In this document: positions 47,211 to 56,694 of the stretch, piece after piece | Layout of the letters: each line of letters starts with the position of its first letter | How positions within the stretch are numbered: the first letter of the stretch is position 1 | IMG/VR virus record: IMGVR_UViG_3300045988_005753 | Source: a virus | Lineage: Duplodnaviria > Heunggongvirae > Uroviricota > Caudoviricetes | Reading direction: 5' to 3' (one strand) | Length of the DNA: 64,000 nt | Notes under the pieces: model-generated | What the model saw: the letters and a program-made list of their open reading frames with translations, nothing else | Told to the model about the DNA's origin: nothing | Databases searched by the model: none | Translations under genes and position numbers: made by a program

Positions 47211-47481
47211 AGAAAAGTGGGAGATTTTACCATTAGTCAGTGAAGGAGGCAATGGTTGTGAAATGTACATGATACGTGGTCATGTTCCAGAGCCAATCGC
47301 ACTTGAGATGGTAAACAACTTTACAGATGGTTCTTACAAAGACTTAGGCGAACCAACTGTCAAGCAACAATGGGTTAAACCTGTACCAGACAGCACAGGT
47401 AACTGTAGTGTACTTTATCACGTTGTAGACCCTGCAAAATGCAAATCTGCAATGGCAGTAACAAACGTAACTTTTGATTGA
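47203..47481 (+). CDS. hypothetical protein
   Basis: 92 aa ORF. Confidence 0.4.
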   Translation: MAKEKWEILPLVSEGGNGCEMYMIRGHVPEPIALEMVNNFTDGSYKDLGEPTVKQQWVKPVPDSTGNCSVLYHVVDPAKCKSAMAVTNVTFD

Positions 47482-48374
47482 GAGAGAAAACTATGAAAAC
47501 ATCTATACGTGTTACAGTTCATTCACCAACTAAAGGAACTCATGAAGAGGAGTTTAACATCATCCAATTTCCTTCTGGTGAGATTGGTGGACACTTTTCG
47601 CCAGAGTTTGTTGATTTTACTGCTTATGCAGCATCATCCATCAACAATGTGATTATGATTGTAAAAGGTTATGATAAAGACACATTGTTTGCTGTGGCAC
47701 TTGCTAAAGAAGCAATTGATGATTTAGTACCTCATAAGTTTGCTATGAAGACCATTATCTTTTACTATTTGCCAAATGCACGTTATGACCGTCACATGTT
47801 TAAAGGTGATGCAGCAGCTTTGAAAGTGTTTGCACAACAGGTTAATGCAATGGGTTTTGATGCAGTCTGTGCAGTTGACCCTCACAGCTATGTACCAGAT
47901 AACCTGTTTAACTGCTTCCAGAGTATTCCTCAAAAGGAAATTGCAGTCCACTATGCAAATGACCCACTGGTTGATTACTTAGTAGCCCCAGATGCAGGTG
48001 CTGCTAAGAAGATTGCAGAGACTGCTAAAGAGGTGGATAAACCATACATCACAATGTCTAAAGTGCGTAACCTTAAGACTGGTGAAATTACTGGTATGCG
48101 AATCCTTGATGATGTTGATTTGACAGATAAAACCGTCATGATTCTGGATGATATTTGTGATGGGGGCCGAACCTTCATAGAAGCAGCTAAACATCTTCGT
48201 GAAGCAGGTGCAAAACGTGTGGAACTCTATGTAACACATGGTATCTTCTCTAAAGATGTTGAAAACCTTCTTGACAACGGCATTGACCACATCTACACTA
48301 CAAACTCTTTAGGGGAAGCTAAAGACCGTGGTTTAACACATTATGGTCAAGTTACCGTAGCAAACCTTGATTAA
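47478..48374 (+). CDS. ribose-phosphate pyrophosphokinase family protein (Prs-like; possibly an ADP-ribose pyrophosphokinase)
   Basis: 298 aa; VMILDDICDGGRT matches the PRPP-binding motif; N-terminus diverges from housekeeping Prs. Confidence 0.65.
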   Translation: MREKTMKTSIRVTVHSPTKGTHEEEFNIIQFPSGEIGGHFSPEFVDFTAYAASSINNVIMIVKGYDKDTLFAVALAKEAIDDLVPHKFAMKTIIFYYLPNARYDRHMFKGDAAALKVFAQQVNAMGFDAVCAVDPHSYVPDNLFNCFQSIPQKEIAVHYANDPLVDYLVAPDAGAAKKIAETAKEVDKPYITMSKVRNLKTGEITGMRILDDVDLTDKTVMILDDICDGGRTFIEAAKHLREAGAKRVELYVTHGIFSKDVENLLDNGIDHIYTTNSLGEAKDRGLTHYGQVTVANLD

Positions 48375-48383
48375 AACTTTATA

Positions 48384-48404
48384 GGGGCTTTTAAGCCCCA
48401 TTTT
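48384..48404 (+). terminator. weak terminator/attenuator hairpin between the Prs-like and Nampt-like genes
   Basis: GGGGC/GCCCC stem followed by ATTTT. Confidence 0.3.
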
Positions 48405-48419
48405 GAGAGAGATTAAAAG

Positions 48420-50201
48420 ATGACTAAATCACTTTATGCAGTACCAGCAGGTTTAAACGCAGATGCTTACAAATCTGGTCACATCTACCAGTATCCTAGT
48501 GCAACAGAGTACTTGATGTTCAACCTGACACCACGTAGCGATAAATGGTTTAACAGCCCATTAGCAATTGATGGTGTAGTTGCTTTTGGTATTCAACGTT
48601 TTGTTAAAGATTACCTGATAGACCACTGGAACGCCACCTTCTTCGAACGTGACAAAAAAGAAGCAATTGACGAAATCTTAGAAGTCATGAATGGTGTTCT
48701 GGGTAAAGATGCTATTGGTCGAGAACATTGGGAAGCACTCCACGACTTAGGTTATCTACCAGTTGAAGTCTACGCTGTAGAAGAAGGAACAGTTGTCCCT
48801 ATGCGTGTACCAATGATTGTCTTCCAGAATACTGTTTCAGGTTTCCATTGGGTAGCGGGGTATCTGGAAGATGCTTTTTCTGCTGAGATTTGGAAGGCTT
48901 GTACCATTGCAACTATTGCATTGCACTACAAACGTATCTGTAAGAAGTGGTCTGACCTTACTTGTGACAACGACTTACATTTGCCTTATCAGTGCCATGA
49001 CTTTGCTATGCGTGGTATGTCCGGCTTTACTGATGACGCATTTAACGCTGTAGGCCACTTAACCAGCTTTAAAGGAACCGATAGCTTCCCTGCTGTATAC
49101 ACGGCTAAACGCATCTATGGACAGTCCTACCCAATTTCTGATATTGGCAGTTCTGTACCAGCCACTGAACACTCTGTAATGTGTGCAAACATTGCTTGGG
49201 AAGGTGGTAACGAGTTAATTGAAGAAGAAAGACGCTTTAAAGGTGAGTTACAAACCTTCCGTCGTTTCTTAACAGAAACTTACCCAACGGGTATTGCAAG
49301 TGTTGTTTCAGATACTTATAACTTCTGGAGAACTGTATCAGTCATATTACCAGAACTCCGTAAAGAGATTATGGAACGTAATGGCAAACTGGTAATTCGT
49401 CCTGATTCTGGAGACCCTGTACATATTGTCACAGGTTATAAAGCAATCCACTTAGAGTGTGCTAAAAAGGCTTATTACGAACACCTAAGCAAGCTGGAAG
49501 CCAGTGACACAATGTTGAATGCTGTTCTGAACATGAAGCTTGAGGATATTAACTATGGTATTGCTGGATGGCTACTGTCAGAAGGCTACGAAATGGTTGT
49601 TGACAGAGAAGACTTTGAAGTTGCTGACACAGTGATGTTGAAAAACGCTTATATGGTTGGTTCTGCAAACGTTGTAACACGTCCTGTAGCAGAGATTGAT
49701 GGGGCTATTAAGACCCTGTATAACATCTTTGGAGGGACTATCAACTCTAAAGGCTTTAAGGTACTTGATGAGCACATTGGACTCATCTATGGTGACTCTA
49801 TCACGTTGGAACGTGCAAACGAAATCCTGAAGCGTTTGTATGAAATGGGTTTTGCAAGCTCTAACGTAGTGTTTGGTGTAGGTTCTTACACTTACCAGTA
49901 CATGACTCGTGACACCTTTGCATTTGCTGTCAAAGCAACTCTTGCAAGCATTGGTGGTAAAGAGATTATGCTTGCAAAAGACCCTAAAACAGATAGTGGT
50001 GTTAAGAAGTCTGCTTTTGGTGGTGTAGCACCTATGTGGGATGGTGATAATCTGAAAGCTGTAGATGGTTATGGATTCCAGAGCTTTGAAGATGTACTTG
50101 AACATCCAGCTTGTGCTTTACGTTTAGTCTTTAGCGAATCTGAGCAGTTTGGCTACACAACTCTTGGAGATATTCGAAATAATATTGACAAGCAGCTTTA
50201 A
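48420..50201 (+). CDS. nicotinamide phosphoribosyltransferase family protein (Nampt/NadV-like)
   Basis: 593 aa; N-terminal ...ADAYKSGHIYQYP... and ...HDFAMRGMSG... resemble conserved Nampt motifs (DSYK...YP; DFGxRG). Confidence 0.7.
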   Translation: MTKSLYAVPAGLNADAYKSGHIYQYPSATEYLMFNLTPRSDKWFNSPLAIDGVVAFGIQRFVKDYLIDHWNATFFERDKKEAIDEILEVMNGVLGKDAIGREHWEALHDLGYLPVEVYAVEEGTVVPMRVPMIVFQNTVSGFHWVAGYLEDAFSAEIWKACTIATIALHYKRICKKWSDLTCDNDLHLPYQCHDFAMRGMSGFTDDAFNAVGHLTSFKGTDSFPAVYTAKRIYGQSYPISDIGSSVPATEHSVMCANIAWEGGNELIEEERRFKGELQTFRRFLTETYPTGIASVVSDTYNFWRTVSVILPELRKEIMERNGKLVIRPDSGDPVHIVTGYKAIHLECAKKAYYEHLSKLEASDTMLNAVLNMKLEDINYGIAGWLLSEGYEMVVDREDFEVADTVMLKNAYMVGSANVVTRPVAEIDGAIKTLYNIFGGTINSKGFKVLDEHIGLIYGDSITLERANEILKRLYEMGFASSNVVFGVGSYTYQYMTRDTFAFAVKATLASIGGKEIMLAKDPKTDSGVKKSAFGGVAPMWDGDNLKAVDGYGFQSFEDVLEHPACALRLVFSESEQFGYTTLGDIRNNIDKQL

Positions 50202-50215
50202 AAGTATATGATAAG

Positions 50216-50238
50216 AGGCTCCTACGGGAGCCTTTTTT
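50216..50238 (+). terminator. rho-independent terminator
   Basis: AGGCTCC, loop TACG, GGAGCCT, then TTTTTT. Confidence 0.6.
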
Positions 50239-50255
50239 AATTTCTGGAGAAGATT

Positions 50256-50591
50256 ATGAAAATCAAAGAGATGAACATCAACATTGTCTTAGAAGAACGT
50301 TGGGAGAACATCAAGAAGCCTGAAAATGGTCATAAGTTCCTCAACAAAATCTTAGTAGCAGCTAAAGAAGAACTGACTGGCAAGGTTGCAGCAGCAATCA
50401 CAATAAAAGTTTGTGTAAAAGGTCTTCCAGACAATCACCAATTTGCACTTGACGTGTTTAAAGAAAACTTCTACAATCCAAACAAACAGATGCTTGAAAG
50501 TAACTTTGCAGTATCTACAAGTATCGTCCATGACAGAAGCTTTATCCTTTACAAAAATATGAGAGGTGAGTCATGCAAGCATATTGGGTAG
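50256..50591 (+). CDS. hypothetical protein
   Basis: 111 aa; GGAGA 5 nt upstream of the ATG. Confidence 0.4.
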   Translation: MKIKEMNINIVLEERWENIKKPENGHKFLNKILVAAKEELTGKVAAAITIKVCVKGLPDNHQFALDVFKENFYNPNKQMLESNFAVSTSIVHDRSFILYKNMRGESCKHIG

Positions 50592-50749
50592 AAATTTTAC
50601 TGTCACTTGGTAGTGTAGCAGTACTTGTTTACCTTCTTTGTAAGTACTTTGCAGAACACAAGAAGTGTGACTACTGTAACGGAGAAGGGTATACAAGAGC
50701 AGGTTGTTGCCCTATGTGTGGTGGTTCTGGTAAAATGTTTAATAAGTAA
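50573..50749 (+). CDS. small membrane-anchored protein with two CxxCxGxG zinc-finger motifs (58 aa, below the track cut-off)
   Basis: ATG at 50573 behind AGGTGA; N-terminal hydrophobic helix, then CDYCNGEG and CPMCGGSG, the DnaJ-type Cys-rich repeat pattern. Confidence 0.35.
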   Translation: MQAYWVEILLSLGSVAVLVYLLCKYFAEHKKCDYCNGEGYTRAGCCPMCGGSGKMFNK

Positions 50750-50777
50750 TTTAACAGTAAACTAAGAGGAAAGTATT

Positions 50778-53144
50778 ATGCGCATGGTAAATGACCACGC
50801 AGAAGTGATTAAGAGTTCAACTTCTTTAGAGACGTCTCAAGCACAGATTACAATGACACCTGAGATGTTCAGCCTTTTGAGTTCTGGTGTATACACCTTT
50901 AAAGAAAGGGCAGTGATTCGTGAACTGTCATGTAACGCAGTAGATGCTCAGAAAGAAGCTGGAAAAGAGAACATTCCATTCCATGTGCATTTACCTACTC
51001 GTTTTGAGCCTTACTTCGAAGTTCGTGATTTTGGAACTGGATTGACTCATGATAAAGTTATGAGTTTGTACCTAAACTATGGAGCTTCTACGAAGAATGA
51101 CTCTAATGACTACATTGGTGCAATGGGTATCGGCTCAAAGTCACCATTTTCAATTGCTCAGTCATTCACAGTATCTAGCTATGTTGACGGTGTTGTTAAT
51201 AAGTACTCTGTTTATCTTGAGAATGGTATCCCTCAAGTAACTAAGCTGACAACTAACCCAACAAAAGAACCTAATGGTTTAGCTGTACGTGTGGCAGTTG
51301 CTGACCACCGTATCTCAAAGTTCTTTGAAGAAGCTGGGAATGTGTACTCATACTTCACTGTAAAACCAGAAAGTAATATTGAGTACGACGATGTATTAGC
51401 AGATATGAACGTCATTGCCCGTGAAGAAGGTGTTTATGATGCCATGATTCATAAGCAAAGCTGGCGTTCTAGTGGTAACAGGACAGAGTTTAATGTGGTG
51501 ATGGGTAACATTGCCTACCCTGTTAATATGGAAGCATTACTTGGTGATGATTTCTTCAAAGTATTGCCAGAATTTTTCCGTAGGAGCGTAGACCTTGTAA
51601 ACATCTACATGCCTATTGGTTCAGTTGCTATTGCAGCTTCTCGTGAAGCATTGCAGATGAATGACACGACAAAAAATGTTATCATTGAGGCTACTAAAAA
51701 GATAACTGAAGCAATTACAAAGGATGTTATCAAGAAAGTTAATAGCCAACCTACACTCATGGATGCTGCACAGGCTTATGCTGAGTTACGTTTGAACTCA
51801 CGAGAGATGTTTAATGCTGTGTGTCCAAAGCTAGAGTGGGGAGGTGTTAAGCTTGATTCTCTGGAAGAAGAATTACTAAACATTCGTCGTGGAATTATCT
51901 ACGCAGAAGACGGCTCAGTCATTTACGAACGTGACGGTAAAGGCAATATCAAGGTTGATAGGAACGGGAACAATATCCCTAAAGTAGATTATCTTTATGA
52001 CCCAGTTGCTTATGTCAAGTTCAACTCTTTAGAGAGTAAGATTCGTGCAACATCGCTTTCCTACACTCAAGAGGCAAGTATGTTCAATATCTTTGGCGCA
52101 ATGCGTAAAAGTCAAATTGAACAGTTTTTGTTTGTTATAAATGACCGTCGAAATAAAAATGGTACTGAGAAGACTGTAGGACGCAACCAAATCTTGCGTG
52201 GTGCATGTCGAGACTATGCCAGTGAGTCAAGTCTGTTTCACAGATACAATGGTATTGTCTTTGTATTCTCTACAGAGAAAGAGCTAGACGACTTAATCAA
52301 TCTGCACAAACTTGATAAAAGCTTGTTAAAGATTGTGAAGATGTCTGATAAGGAACATCATTATCAGCGTAAAGAAGCTGTAAGAGGCGTTGTAAAACTT
52401 TGGAAAGCTGTTCCAGCAGAAGGTGTAGCTTCCTATAAAGAGGTTTCAGAGGACTTAGATACGATTGAAGAGCCTCAGCTTTATATTAAGGCAGTAGGCG
52501 ACACAGTTGATGGCGAATGTTTTTGCTCATCTCCAGAAGATGTAGCTAAGTCAGTTGCCAATGTCATTGGAAAGAAAGTATATGTTTTCCGAAAAGCAAA
52601 TTGGAAAAAGATACCAGAAGACTGGATTGAAGTAGATGAGAAGCTCTTGAATGACAGCTTAACTGATGTTCACTGGATTAACCATAACAGGTATATGACA
52701 CGTATCTATATGAATGGTGTCCTTGACCTTACAAGCAGTTGGATTATTGCCAGAAACTTTACGTTCAATAACAGGAAGATTTCTCGTGGCTATTGTTATT
52801 CGCGGGATACAAACAAAACTATCTTCTTAGAAGGTAATGAAGATGCTGTAGAGGCAATGTTTGGTAAAATCCAATACGTTGCTGCACCATTTGCATACAC
52901 TTACATTATTAGTGTGTTGCAAGATTTGAAAAGGTGTCTTGATAATGATACAAAGCTTTACAAGAAAATTAAGAAAGCTGGTGACCGCATGGTCATTAAG
53001 GTGACAAACTACCTTTCAAAAAGAAAACAAGAAAACTTCTTGCTTTCTCATTTAGATTGGAATAAAGTGTCACCTATTGAAGTGAGTAAGTTCTTAGGCT
53101 TTGATGTGAAGTGTGTTCCAGAAGGGACTACAATTTACGATTAA
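50778..53144 (+). CDS. GHKL-family ATPase, rIIA-like
   Basis: 788 aa; RELSCNAVDA (N box, ExxxNAxDA), DFGTGL (G1 box) and GAMGIGSKS (G2 box) define a Bergerat-fold ATPase; a 369 aa partner gene follows. Confidence 0.5.
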   Translation: MRMVNDHAEVIKSSTSLETSQAQITMTPEMFSLLSSGVYTFKERAVIRELSCNAVDAQKEAGKENIPFHVHLPTRFEPYFEVRDFGTGLTHDKVMSLYLNYGASTKNDSNDYIGAMGIGSKSPFSIAQSFTVSSYVDGVVNKYSVYLENGIPQVTKLTTNPTKEPNGLAVRVAVADHRISKFFEEAGNVYSYFTVKPESNIEYDDVLADMNVIAREEGVYDAMIHKQSWRSSGNRTEFNVVMGNIAYPVNMEALLGDDFFKVLPEFFRRSVDLVNIYMPIGSVAIAASREALQMNDTTKNVIIEATKKITEAITKDVIKKVNSQPTLMDAAQAYAELRLNSREMFNAVCPKLEWGGVKLDSLEEELLNIRRGIIYAEDGSVIYERDGKGNIKVDRNGNNIPKVDYLYDPVAYVKFNSLESKIRATSLSYTQEASMFNIFGAMRKSQIEQFLFVINDRRNKNGTEKTVGRNQILRGACRDYASESSLFHRYNGIVFVFSTEKELDDLINLHKLDKSLLKIVKMSDKEHHYQRKEAVRGVVKLWKAVPAEGVASYKEVSEDLDTIEEPQLYIKAVGDTVDGECFCSSPEDVAKSVANVIGKKVYVFRKANWKKIPEDWIEVDEKLLNDSLTDVHWINHNRYMTRIYMNGVLDLTSSWIIARNFTFNNRKISRGYCYSRDTNKTIFLEGNEDAVEAMFGKIQYVAAPFAYTYIISVLQDLKRCLDNDTKLYKKIKKAGDRMVIKVTNYLSKRKQENFLLSHLDWNKVSPIEVSKFLGFDVKCVPEGTTIYD

Positions 53145-53149
53145 AGTGT

Positions 53150-53179
53150 TTGACAAGGGGCTTTGAAGCCCCTTAGAAT
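53150..53179 (+). promoter_or_regulatory. sigma70-like promoter TTGACA-N18-TAGAAT with a GC hairpin in the spacer
   Basis: TTGACA 53150-53155; TAGAAT 53174-53179; GGGGCTT/AAGCCCC inverted repeat inside the spacer. Confidence 0.4.
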
Positions 53180-54333: not shown

Positions 54334-54349
54334 TAAGTAATTTCTTAAA

Positions 54350-54372
54350 AGGCTGCTTCGGCGGCCTTTTTT
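54350..54372 (+). terminator. rho-independent terminator
   Basis: AGGCTGC, loop TTCG, GCGGCCT (one G-U wobble), then TTTTTT. Confidence 0.6.
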
Positions 54373-56183: not shown

Positions 56184-56531
56184 ATGACATTTAAAGAGTT
56201 CTGTCAAGCTACTTTCATAATTGTTTTCTTAGTTGGGGCAGGTGTCTGGGGAGGATACTCTTACAGAGACTACCAAGTTGCTGAAGCTGAGTTAAGTAAT
56301 GAGAAACTAATAAGTGTTGCTAAAGATGCTTATCAGGAAGGTTTAGCCACACTCAGCACCAATTACAAAAATGATTTGAAAGATGTGCTTGCTAAGAATA
56401 AGCATACAAAAGAGGTACTAACATATGAAAAAACTAAGCCAGAGTTTTATAATGTTTGTGTTACTGATAATTATGTCAGGGTGTTCAACGAACAAAGTGA
56501 ACAGTACATTCAAAAACTCCCAAGTAAGTGA
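56184..56531 (+). CDS. i-spanin-like protein (Rz-like)
   Basis: 115 aa with one N-terminal transmembrane helix (FIIVFLVGAGVWGG) and a charged helical remainder; the 3' end overlaps a lipoprotein ORF in another frame. Confidence 0.4.
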   Translation: MTFKEFCQATFIIVFLVGAGVWGGYSYRDYQVAEAELSNEKLISVAKDAYQEGLATLSTNYKNDLKDVLAKNKHTKEVLTYEKTKPEFYNVCVTDNYVRVFNEQSEQYIQKLPSK

Positions 56532-56694
56532 GAGTGACAAGTACACTCAAGAGGAGTCAAGATTCACTGTCAAAGGTAATACCGGTAGTGATGTGGCAGC
56601 AGCCCTTGAGTTTTACCGTGATGGATTCTACCAGTGTACAATCAAAGCTAATAACCTTATTGATATGATTTTATTAGGAAACAAACAGCAATGA
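56425..56694 (+). CDS. o-spanin-like lipoprotein (Rz1-like), overlapping in the +1 frame
   Basis: MKKLSQSFIMFVLLIIMSGC: signal peptide with an M-S-G-C lipobox; the ORF starts inside 56184..56531 in a different frame. Confidence 0.4.
   Translation: MKKLSQSFIMFVLLIIMSGCSTNKVNSTFKNSQVSESDKYTQEESRFTVKGNTGSDVAAALEFYRDGFYQCTIKANNLIDMILLGNKQQ

What the first reader, a model, noticed from the sequence alone, without database searches (positions are those of the whole stretch)
50573..50749. Unannotated 58 aa membrane-anchored protein with two DnaJ-type CxxCxGxG zinc-finger motifs
An ORF below the track's size cut-off starts at 50573 behind a good Shine-Dalgarno sequence. It encodes a hydrophobic N-terminal helix followed by CDYCNGEG and CPMCGGSG, the spacing of the DnaJ cysteine-rich zinc centre. 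A minimal membrane-tethered zinc finger of this kind could target host chaperone clients or a membrane complex.
Basis: seen in the sequence. Interest (0 to 1): 0.45.

Follow-up and report, generated by a model that had tools for sequence, protein, structure and literature searches.

The report
Membrane-anchored zinc-knuckle protein beside rIIA
This is a real, strongly conserved 58-residue phage gene (the orthologue of Felix O1 ORF131) encoding one membrane helix plus a single DnaJ/Anti-TRAP-type zinc knuckle; public phage records already list it as a hypothetical membrane protein, and its function is still untested.

Summary
The ORF at 50573..50749 exists as described: a good Shine-Dalgarno sequence, one hydrophobic helix, then CDYCNGEG and CPMCGGSG. 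The window is a Felix O1-like phage (Felixounavirus).

The gene is not new. It is Felix O1 ORF131, a RefSeq "hypothetical membrane protein". Some records call it "heat shock protein", and it belongs to PHROG 3931 (unknown function).

It is a genuine coding gene:
- pN/pS is 0.085 in its own frame, against 1.0-1.9 in the other two.
- Across 14 homologues down to 27% identity, the only invariant residues are Met1, four cysteines and three motif glycines.

It is not a DnaJ. It has no J domain and two motifs rather than four, so it can form only one Zn(Cys)4 site. The model best matches Anti-TRAP (rmsd 1.1 Å over 31 residues).

The charge pattern predicts an N-out/C-in topology, with the zinc knuckle in the cytoplasm.

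In seven Ounavirinae lineages the gene lies directly upstream of rIIA-rIIB, inside one terminator-bounded unit. In RB49-like phages it instead overlaps an nrdH-like gene. Other rII-carrying phages lack it.

My best reading is a membrane-tethered protein-binding knuckle made early in infection, whose partner is unknown. It is an ordinary member of a known domain class, of modest interest.

The parts
50185..50212 (+). Sigma-70-like promoter match (TTGACA-16-TATGAT, 11 of 12) at the end of the NAMPT gene
   Evidence: A match sits in the same position in Shigella phage Sf16. This is a consensus match only.
50213..50236 (+). Terminator-like hairpin (10-bp stem plus a T run) that closes the NAMPT unit and marks the upstream boundary of the unit holding the target gene
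   Evidence: An equivalent hairpin is present in Sf16 and in Pectobacterium phage Wc4-1. The phiEa21-4 record annotates a terminator at the same place.
50256..50591 (+). Upstream 111-aa gene of unknown function (phrog_4262; Felix O1 ORF130); its last 19 nt overlap the target gene
   Evidence: The AF2 model has pLDDT 67, and its beta-alpha-beta-alpha-beta-beta fold only weakly resembles the IF3 C-terminal domain.
50563..50569 (+). Shine-Dalgarno sequence GAGGTGA
   Evidence: Purine-rich SD-like motifs sit in the same position in eight homologues.
50573..50749 (+). Coding sequence of the 58-aa membrane-anchored zinc-knuckle protein (orthologue of Felix O1 ORF131)
   Evidence: pN/pS is 0.085, and variable sites number 5/4/23 by codon position.
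50585..50641 (+). Transmembrane helix, residues 5-23 (the AF2 helix spans residues 3-28)
50666..50689 (+). Motif 1, CDYCNGEG (Cys32, Cys35, Gly37, Gly39)
50708..50731 (+). Motif 2, CPMCGGSG (Cys46, Cys49, Gly51, Gly53)
50778..53144 (+). rIIA (788 aa) with a GHKL/HSP90-like ATPase N-terminus; no predicted transmembrane segment
53224..54333 (+). rIIB (369 aa); no predicted transmembrane segment
   Evidence: (PF26926 in the orthologous locus).
54347..54370 (+). Terminator-like hairpin after rIIB, the downstream boundary of the inferred unit

Best explanation
This is a real accessory gene of Felix O1-like phages. It encodes a bitopic inner-membrane protein with about four residues outside, one transmembrane helix (residues 5-23), and a roughly 30-residue cytoplasmic tail. 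In the tail, Cys32, Cys35, Cys46 and Cys49 hold one zinc ion, forming a knuckle built like Anti-TRAP and like one repeat of the DnaJ cysteine-rich domain. It is probably transcribed with the 111-aa gene, rIIA and rIIB from a sigma-70-type promoter, which would make it early. It most likely acts as a membrane-tethered protein-binding module, holding or blocking a partner protein at the cytoplasmic face of the inner membrane. Soluble Anti-TRAP does this with TRAP, and the plant thylakoid protein FIP does it with FtsH5. Candidate partners are RIIA/RIIB, which have no membrane segment of their own, or a host inner-membrane protein. It is not a J-protein co-chaperone. What is shown: the gene is real and constrained, its architecture, the motif conservation, the fold similarity and the synteny. 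What is inferred: zinc binding, topology, co-transcription, early timing and the binding function.
For: Coding and constrained: pN/pS is 0.085 in frame against 1.93 and 1.03 in the other frames among 12 distinct Felixounavirus alleles, with 23 of 32 variable sites at third codon positions; it is 0.13 among Mooglevirus/Suspvirus alleles. The small protein (at least 80% identical) and rIIA (at least 90% identical) are each found in 214 phage records.
Motif: the only invariant columns in 14 homologues (27-59% identical to the query) are M1, C32, C35, G37, C46, C49, G51 and G53.
Fold: the AF2 model has pLDDT 80.4, with a helix at residues 3-28 followed by hairpins. The best PDB matches are Anti-TRAP 3ld0/2bx9 (rmsd 1.1-1.2 Å over 31 residues, probability 1.0), followed by DnaJA2, the DNAJA3 zinc finger, BSD2 and the E. 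coli DnaJ cysteine-rich domain. The family profile hits the DnaJ cysteine-rich domain 1exk at E 4.5e-9 (E-value for the PDB-sized library) as two repeat units.
Topology: there is no Lys/Arg before the hydrophobic window in any of the 13 scored members, and at least one just after it in all 13. Two qualifications: Wc4-1 carries Lys4 inside its window and its only downstream basic residue is the Arg within motif 1, so about 12 of the 13 fit cleanly; and phiEa21-4 gp117, not scored there, shows the same pattern by eye.
Context: the gene lies immediately upstream of rIIA-rIIB in Felixounavirus, Mooglevirus, Suspvirus, Kolesnikvirus (phiEa21-4 gp117), Pectobacterium phage Wc4-1 and two metagenomic lineages. 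Terminator-like hairpins bound the unit at 50213-50236 and 54347-54370, with none in between, and this is conserved in Sf16 and Wc4-1. It is the only protein of that unit with a hydrophobic window above 1.6.
Precedent: FIP has a transmembrane segment plus two CXXCXGXG motifs, lacks a J domain, and binds FtsH5 (PMC5915565).
Against: No expression, zinc-binding, topology or interaction data exist for any family member; the literature searches found none.
The link to rII is not general. Hafnia phage SarahDanielle (Ounavirinae), a Vequintavirus, N4, a Kuttervirus and T4 have no such gene upstream of rIIA. In Krischvirus the homologue sits beside nrdH, not beside rIIA.
The Foldseek E-values (0.04-0.07) are weak in absolute terms for so small a domain, and the model rests on a 10-sequence alignment.
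Promoter and terminator calls are consensus matches only. A weaker promoter-like site lies between the gene and rIIA (50751-50779), so rIIA may also be transcribed on its own.
One homologue (Wc4-1) has Lys4 within its hydrophobic window and an acidic segment just after the helix, which clouds its predicted topology.
Confidence: 0.5

Rival explanations
1. Redox module. The CxxC pairs act as a thiol-disulfide oxidoreductase or redox switch at the membrane rather than as a purely structural zinc site, as reported for the DnaJ cysteine-rich domain and some plant DnaJ-like zinc-finger proteins.
For: In Krischvirus-type phages the homologue overlaps the 3' end of an nrdH/glutaredoxin-like gene by 11 nt, in both Phi1 and a divergent metagenomic relative. 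The abstract of PMC8262869 reports oxidoreductase activity for DnaJ.
Against: In Ounavirinae the coupled upstream gene has no CxxC motif and no thioredoxin-like fold. The invariant Gly residues and the 10-residue spacer are those of the structural zinc knuckle seen in Anti-TRAP and DnaJ.
Confidence: 0.12
2. DnaJ mimic. The tethered zinc finger captures DnaK/DnaJ clients or competes with host DnaJ at the membrane.
For: There is sequence-level homology to the DnaJ cysteine-rich repeat (Pfam PF00684 at E 0.0065). Some annotators call it 'heat shock protein'.
Against: There is no J domain, G/F region or C-terminal client-binding domain. Only two of the four motifs are present. Scores are 17 bits against cut-offs of 32.7 (Pfam) and 377 (TIGR02349). 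The 'heat shock protein' label is annotation transfer from the motif.
Confidence: 0.1
3. Holin or another lysis-timing protein. The Felix O1 genome paper lists gp131 among five small membrane proteins that could be the holin.
For: PMC3185647 names gp79, gp116, gp118, gp119 or gp131 as possible holins, and ORF131 is the orthologue. The protein is small, with one transmembrane segment and a basic C-terminus. Spanin genes lie about 2 kb downstream of rIIB.
Against: It lies in the rII/nucleotide-metabolism block behind a sigma-70-like promoter, far from the endolysin. A different gene is annotated as holin in EcoM2. An invariant zinc-knuckle tail is not a known holin feature (my own knowledge). 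Homologues also occur in Krischvirus (RB49-like) phages; from my own knowledge, not checked here, these T4-related phages carry a T4-type holin of their own.
Confidence: 0.06
4. Chance ORF or non-functional remnant.
For: A few database versions are frameshifted and lose the zinc knuckle or the helix: phiWec177, NJ12 and two metagenomic contigs.
Against: pN/pS is 0.085 and 0.13. The gene is conserved across at least seven Ounavirinae lineages with invariant motif residues. The motif pair is far above chance.
Confidence: 0.01

Closest known systems
Felix O1 ORF131 / gp131 (NP_945023.1, 'hypothetical membrane protein'); PHROG 3931
   Same: It is the orthologue: 94.8% identical, the same 58 codons, and the same position as the last gene before rIIA. 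The match to phrog_3931 is full length at E 4e-33.
   Different: Nothing material. The family has no assigned function; the only published idea found is 'possible holin' (PMC3185647).
Anti-TRAP (RtpA) of Bacillus subtilis and B. licheniformis (PDB 2bx9, 3ld0, 3lcz)
   Same: It is a very small protein whose core is one Zn(Cys)4 site made by two adjacent DnaJ-type motifs. It is the best structural match (rmsd 1.1-1.2 Å over 31 residues). By my own recollection of the Anti-TRAP sequence, not checked here, the spacer between the second and third Cys is also 10 residues. It works by binding and blocking another protein (PDB entry titles; own knowledge).
   Different: Anti-TRAP is soluble and, from my own knowledge, trimerises through a C-terminal helix. 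The phage protein has an N-terminal membrane helix instead and ends 9 residues after the last Cys. The NCBIfam RtpA model scores 11 bits against a cut-off of 65. Enterobacteria have no TRAP, so the target must differ.
DnaJ cysteine-rich domain (E. coli DnaJ, PDB 1exk; Pfam PF00684)
   Same: The CxxCxGxG motif is shared. The family profile aligns to both repeat units of 1exk (E 4.5e-9), and without gaps to motifs 3-4.
   Different: DnaJ has four motifs and two zinc centres embedded between a J domain/G-F region and client-binding domains; here there are two motifs and none of the rest. The single sequence scores 17.1 bits against a gathering score of 32.7.
Plant FIP (FtsH5-interacting protein, AT5G02160) and other stand-alone DnaJ-like zinc-finger proteins such as BSD2 (PDB 6ekb)
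   Same: FIP has a membrane anchor followed by a C-terminal C4 zinc finger with two CXXCXGXG repeats and no J domain, which is the same architecture (PMC5915565). BSD2 appears among the fold matches.
   Different: FIP is a eukaryotic thylakoid protein with a transit peptide, reported only in land plants. Direct sequence relatedness to FIP beyond the motif was not tested here. BSD2 is soluble and binds Rubisco large subunit.
RB49 ORF046 / Phi1 ORF046 (Krischvirus) and phiEa21-4 gp117
   Same: They share the helix plus two-motif architecture at 52-54 aa. They are retrieved by tblastn, by the profile search and by the fold search. The phiEa21-4 annotators had already noted the RB49p046 similarity.
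   Different: The Krischvirus copy sits between nrdH and 55.2 and overlaps nrdH, not next to rIIA.

Membership tests
Type I J-protein (DnaJ/Hsp40) | J domain with an HPD motif | tested here: not met
   The protein is 58 aa. There is no J-domain hit in Pfam or NCBIfam, and the DnaJ equivalog TIGR02349 scores 17.3 bits against a cut-off of 377.
Type I J-protein (DnaJ/Hsp40) | Cysteine-rich domain with four CxxCxGxG motifs forming two zinc centres | tested here: not met
   Only two motifs are present.
Pfam PF00684 DnaJ_CXXCXGXG | Score at or above the gathering threshold (32.7 bits) | tested here: not met
   The single sequence scores 17.1 bits at E 0.0065. At profile level the family does match the DnaJ cysteine-rich domain 1exk (E 4.5e-9, two stretches). 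The repeat unit is therefore homologous, but the full domain is not present.
Anti-TRAP (RtpA, NCBIfam NF058604) | One Zn(Cys)4 knuckle formed by two adjacent motifs | tested here: met
   Foldseek gives rmsd 1.1 Å over 31 residues with probability 1.0. This is a predicted model only; zinc binding was not measured.
Anti-TRAP (RtpA, NCBIfam NF058604) | Family HMM score at or above the cut-off (65 bits), a soluble protein with a C-terminal trimerisation helix, and a TRAP target | tested here: not met
   The score is 11 bits. The protein has an N-terminal transmembrane helix and no C-terminal helix.
Membrane-anchored stand-alone DnaJ-like zinc finger (plant FIP type) | Transmembrane anchor plus a C-terminal zinc finger with two CXXCXGXG repeats and no J domain | tested here: met
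   compared with the description of FIP in PMC5915565. This shows shared architecture only; common descent was not tested.
Membrane-anchored stand-alone DnaJ-like zinc finger (plant FIP type) | Binds the FtsH protease | not testable with these tools
   This needs a pull-down or two-hybrid assay against E. coli or Salmonella FtsH.
PHROG 3931 | Full-length match to the family HMM | tested here: met
   E 4e-33, residues 1-58 against profile positions 1-59 of 59. The family is of unknown function.
Component of the rII module | Conserved adjacency to rIIA-rIIB wherever those genes occur | tested here: not met
   The gene is adjacent in seven Ounavirinae lineages. It is absent upstream of rIIA in Hafnia phage SarahDanielle, a Vequintavirus, N4, a Kuttervirus and T4, and it sits elsewhere in Krischvirus.
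Holin | Late expression, lysis-cassette context, and membrane lesion formation | tested here: inconclusive
   The context argues against it: the gene lies in the rII block behind a sigma-70-like promoter, and another gene is annotated as holin in EcoM2. Holin activity itself cannot be tested here.

The most novel reading that the evidence does not exclude
The protein is a dedicated third component of the Ounavirinae rII system, or a phage inhibitor/adaptor of a host inner-membrane machine such as FtsH. In the first case it would be a zinc-knuckle membrane anchor that recruits the transmembrane-less RIIA (a GHKL-type ATPase) and RIIB to the inner membrane. The second case follows the example of plant FIP. 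Either would give a first molecular handle on how rII-type proteins engage the membrane, or a new class of small phage-encoded regulators of membrane proteases.
Probability: 0.12. Interest if true: 0.6.

Novelty: new member of a known kind. Interest (0 to 1): 0.3.

Why it matters
Small phage membrane proteins are a large share of phage "dark matter". This one is near-universal in a phage genus widely used for Salmonella and E. coli typing and biocontrol. How the classic rII proteins meet the membrane is still unclear, so showing that this protein anchors or regulates RIIA/RIIB, or blocks a host membrane protein, would be useful. As it stands, the finding mainly corrects two annotations: "heat shock protein" is unjustified, and the overlapping +1-frame ORF is not a gene. 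It also defines a clean, testable domain model. It does not reveal a new kind of system.

Tried and rejected
- T4 rIIA.1, the gene in the equivalent position upstream of T4 rIIA, is unrelated: it has no hydrophobic segment and no Cys.
- A single-sequence search of the word-indexed protein database found only close relatives and frameshifted versions. An alignment query and the exhaustive HMMER run were needed to reach further.
- Most of the 1142 HMMER hits, all 73 hits in cellular genomes, and the IMG/VR hits L020-L027 match only the zinc-finger half. They are DnaJ itself or long multi-repeat proteins, not family members. No full-length homologue was found in one genome from each of 185,579 bacterial and archaeal species.
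- The cyanophage S-RIM2 and Vibrio phage K288 tblastn hits were motif-only or spurious.
- The upstream 111-aa partner gave only a low-confidence model (pLDDT 67) with weak IF3-C-like matches (E about 0.01, TM about 0.45). This was too weak to use.
- The literature searches found no functional or expression data for this gene. The HIDEN-SEQ essentiality preprint does not cover Felixounavirus. One search with loose settings returned only irrelevant papers.
- A link between the length of rIIB and the presence of the small gene was considered and dropped: Wc4-1 has the gene and a long rIIB, while SarahDanielle lacks the gene and also has a long rIIB.

Full report
**What is there.** The window is a Felix O1-like myovirus. 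A 4.8-kb stretch around the finding is 95-97% identical to many Felixounavirus genomes. The ORF at 50573..50749 (+) reads MQAYWVEILLSLGSVAVLVYLLCKYFAEHKKCDYCNGEGYTRAGCCPMCGGSGKMFNK. GAGGTGA at 50563-50569 precedes the ATG by 3 nt. The start overlaps the last 19 nt of a 111-aa ORF (50256..50591). The two C..C.G.G motifs are the only ones in all six reading frames of the 64-kb window; mononucleotide shuffles give 0.18 per window on average.

**It is already annotated elsewhere.** The orthologue is ORF131 of Felix O1: 'unknown' in AF320576, 'hypothetical membrane protein' NP_945023.1 in RefSeq. It is called 'membrane protein' in JH2 and 'heat shock protein' in EcoM2 and Mushroom. It matches phrog_3931 (unknown function) over its full length at E 4e-33. 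The Felix O1 genome paper names gp131 as one of five small membrane proteins that 'could be the holin' (PMC3185647). I found no experimental work on it.

**It is a real gene.**
- Among 12 distinct Felixounavirus alleles, pooled Nei-Gojobori pN/pS is 0.085 in the annotated frame, against 1.93 and 1.03 in the other two. Of the 32 variable sites, 23 fall at third codon positions.
- Among four Mooglevirus/Suspvirus alleles the ratio is 0.13, against 1.3 and 2.0.
- These are pooled pairwise counts, not phylogenetically independent, but the contrast between frames is clear.
- The small protein (at least 80% identity) and rIIA (at least 90% identity) each occur in 214 phage records, so the gene is essentially universal in the genus.
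- A few database versions are frameshifted (phiWec177, NJ12 and two metagenomic contigs). I did not determine whether these are sequencing errors.

**Family and conserved residues.**
- Homologues with the same architecture occur in Mooglevirus (Sf16, 54%), Suspvirus (SUSP1, 47%), Kolesnikvirus (phiEa21-4 gp117) and Pectobacterium phages Wc4-1/Arno162.
- They also occur in two metagenomic Ounavirinae-like lineages and in the RB49-like Krischvirus group (Phi1/RB49 ORF046 and relatives).
- In an alignment of 14 such proteins, down to 27% identity, the only invariant columns are Met1, Cys32, Cys35, Gly37, Cys46, Cys49, Gly51 and Gly53. Gly39 is kept in 13 of 14.
- Cys23 and Cys45 are not conserved, so the four zinc ligands are Cys32, Cys35, Cys46 and Cys49.
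- No full-length homologue turned up in one genome from each of 185,579 bacterial and archaeal species; those hits cover only the zinc-finger half.

**What the domain is.**
- Single-sequence model scores are sub-threshold: PF00684 scores 17.1 bits against 32.7, DUF5351 18.6 against 27, TIGR02349 17.3 against 377, and RtpA 11 against 65.
- The family profile, however, hits the solved E. coli DnaJ cysteine-rich domain (1exk) at E 4.5e-9. It aligns twice, once to motifs 1-2 and once without gaps to motifs 3-4. The tail is therefore homologous to one repeat unit of that domain.
- An AlphaFold2 model from the 10-sequence alignment (pLDDT 80.4) gives a helix at residues 3-28 followed by two short hairpins.
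- Its best PDB matches are Anti-TRAP from B. licheniformis and B. subtilis (rmsd 1.1-1.2 Å over 31 residues, probability 1.0, E 0.04-0.07). DnaJA2, the DNAJA3 zinc finger, BSD2 and 1exk follow.
- In DnaJ the four motifs build two zinc centres (own knowledge). With only two motifs, this protein can build one, as Anti-TRAP does.
- There is no J domain, G/F region or client-binding domain, so it is not a DnaJ. The 'heat shock protein' label is annotation transfer from the motif.

**Topology (inferred).**
- The best hydrophobic window has a Kyte-Doolittle mean of 2.14.
- None of the 13 scored family members has Lys/Arg before the window, and all have at least one just after it.
- The Wc4-1 protein is the least clear case. 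It has Lys4 inside the window and an acidic segment after the helix, and its only downstream basic residue is the Arg within motif 1.
- By eye, phiEa21-4 gp117, which was not scored, shows the same pattern as the others.
- By the positive-inside rule the protein is N-out/C-in. That places the cysteines in the reducing cytoplasm, as a zinc site requires.

**Context.**
- The gene order is PRPP synthase, NAMPT, [terminator-like hairpin 50213-50236], 111-aa gene, target gene, rIIA, rIIB, [terminator-like hairpin 54347-54370].
- A strong sigma-70-like match (50185-50212) abuts the first hairpin. Weaker or internal matches precede rIIA (50751-50779) and rIIB (53150-53179).
- The promoter-hairpin pair recurs in Sf16 and Wc4-1, and the phiEa21-4 record annotates a terminator at the same spot.
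- The target gene lies directly upstream of rIIA in all seven Ounavirinae lineages that have it.
- The 111-aa gene is missing in Wc4-1, so adjacency to rIIA is the more stable feature.
- Within the unit, only the 58-aa protein has a predicted membrane segment. The maximum 19-residue hydropathy is 1.29 for RIIA and 0.69 for RIIB.
- The RIIA N-terminus matches GHKL/HSP90-type ATPase models.

**Limits of the rII link.**
- Hafnia phage SarahDanielle (Ounavirinae), a Vequintavirus, N4, a Kuttervirus and T4 carry no CxxCxGxG gene near rIIA.
- In Krischvirus the homologue overlaps the end of an nrdH-like glutaredoxin gene, between nrdH and 55.2.
- The gene is therefore a lineage-specific accessory, not a general part of the rII system.

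**Mechanism.**
- The best-supported reading is a membrane-tethered, zinc-stabilised protein-binding knuckle. It is made with the rII proteins and holds or blocks a partner at the cytoplasmic face of the inner membrane.
- The precedents are Anti-TRAP, a roughly 53-residue zinc knuckle that inhibits TRAP by binding it, and plant FIP. FIP has a transmembrane segment plus two CXXCXGXG motifs, has no J domain, and binds FtsH5 (PMC5915565).
- The identity of the partner is unknown.
- Rival readings are a redox function (suggested by the nrdH coupling in Krischvirus), DnaJ mimicry, and holin or lysis timing (the published suggestion).
- The holin idea is weakened by the gene's position in the rII/nucleotide-metabolism block and by another gene being annotated as holin in EcoM2. 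From my own knowledge, not checked here, the Krischvirus phages that carry homologues also have their own T4-type holin.
- A chance ORF is excluded.

**Verdict.** This is a new, uncharacterised member of the known class of stand-alone DnaJ-type zinc-knuckle proteins, and it is of modest interest.

Noticed in passing
window 50625-50765 (+): A 46-aa ORF in the +1 frame inside the target gene is annotated as a CDS in at least one relative (Pr103Blw_00130). Its frame shows pN/pS 1.9, so it is an annotation artefact. The frameshifted database proteins P0003, P0005 and P0006 read into this frame.
   Followed up: partly
window 50185-50236 (+): A strong promoter-like site sits back to back with a terminator-like hairpin right after the NAMPT stop codon. 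A transcript starting from this promoter would begin inside the hairpin stem. The arrangement is conserved in Sf16 and Wc4-1.
   Followed up: partly
window 50778-51200 (+), rIIA N-terminus: RIIA residues 30-134 match HSP90-family and sacsin-type GHKL ATPase models (NF010683 at E 5e-11). Neither RIIA nor RIIB has a predicted membrane segment.
   Followed up: no
window 47478-50591; protein P0165: A metagenomic protein from a 95.7-kb contig fuses the N-terminus of the PRPP synthase to the C-terminus of the 111-aa protein. This implies either a variant with NAMPT deleted or a mis-assembly.
   Followed up: no
between NAMPT and the 111-aa gene (window about 50201-50256); L003 2356-2700, L005 2472-2687, L028 1197-1412: This intergenic slot is variable. 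Some relatives carry an extra 345-nt ORF or a 216-nt DUF7279 ORF here, phiEa21-4 has a 462-nt ORF, and Felix O1 and SUSP1 have a homing endonuclease between the PRPP synthase and NAMPT.
   Followed up: no
window 56184-56694 (+): ORFs at 56184-56531 and 56425-56694 appear, from their size and position, to correspond to the genes annotated as Rz-like i-spanin and overlapping o-spanin in JH2 and EcoM2. That would put spanin genes about 2 kb downstream of rIIB, far from the endolysin. The correspondence was not checked by alignment.
   Followed up: no
GenBank MG065664.1 ('Campylobacter phage A132'): This record is 98.6% identical to the window's rIIA and 94.8% identical to the small protein, so it is a Felixounavirus. 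It is probably a mislabelled or contaminant record.
   Followed up: no
L006 2236-2653; L030 3742-4177; L031 255-699: In RB49-like phages the homologous helix-plus-zinc-knuckle gene always overlaps the 3' end of the nrdH-like glutaredoxin gene by 11 nt. This suggests translational coupling to a redox protein.
   Followed up: partly
window 50256-50591 (+): The 111-aa partner gene (phrog_4262) has homologues in Moogle-, Susp- and Kolesnikvirus. Its low-confidence model (pLDDT 67) has a beta-alpha-beta-alpha-beta-beta fold that weakly resembles the IF3 C-terminal domain.
   Followed up: partly
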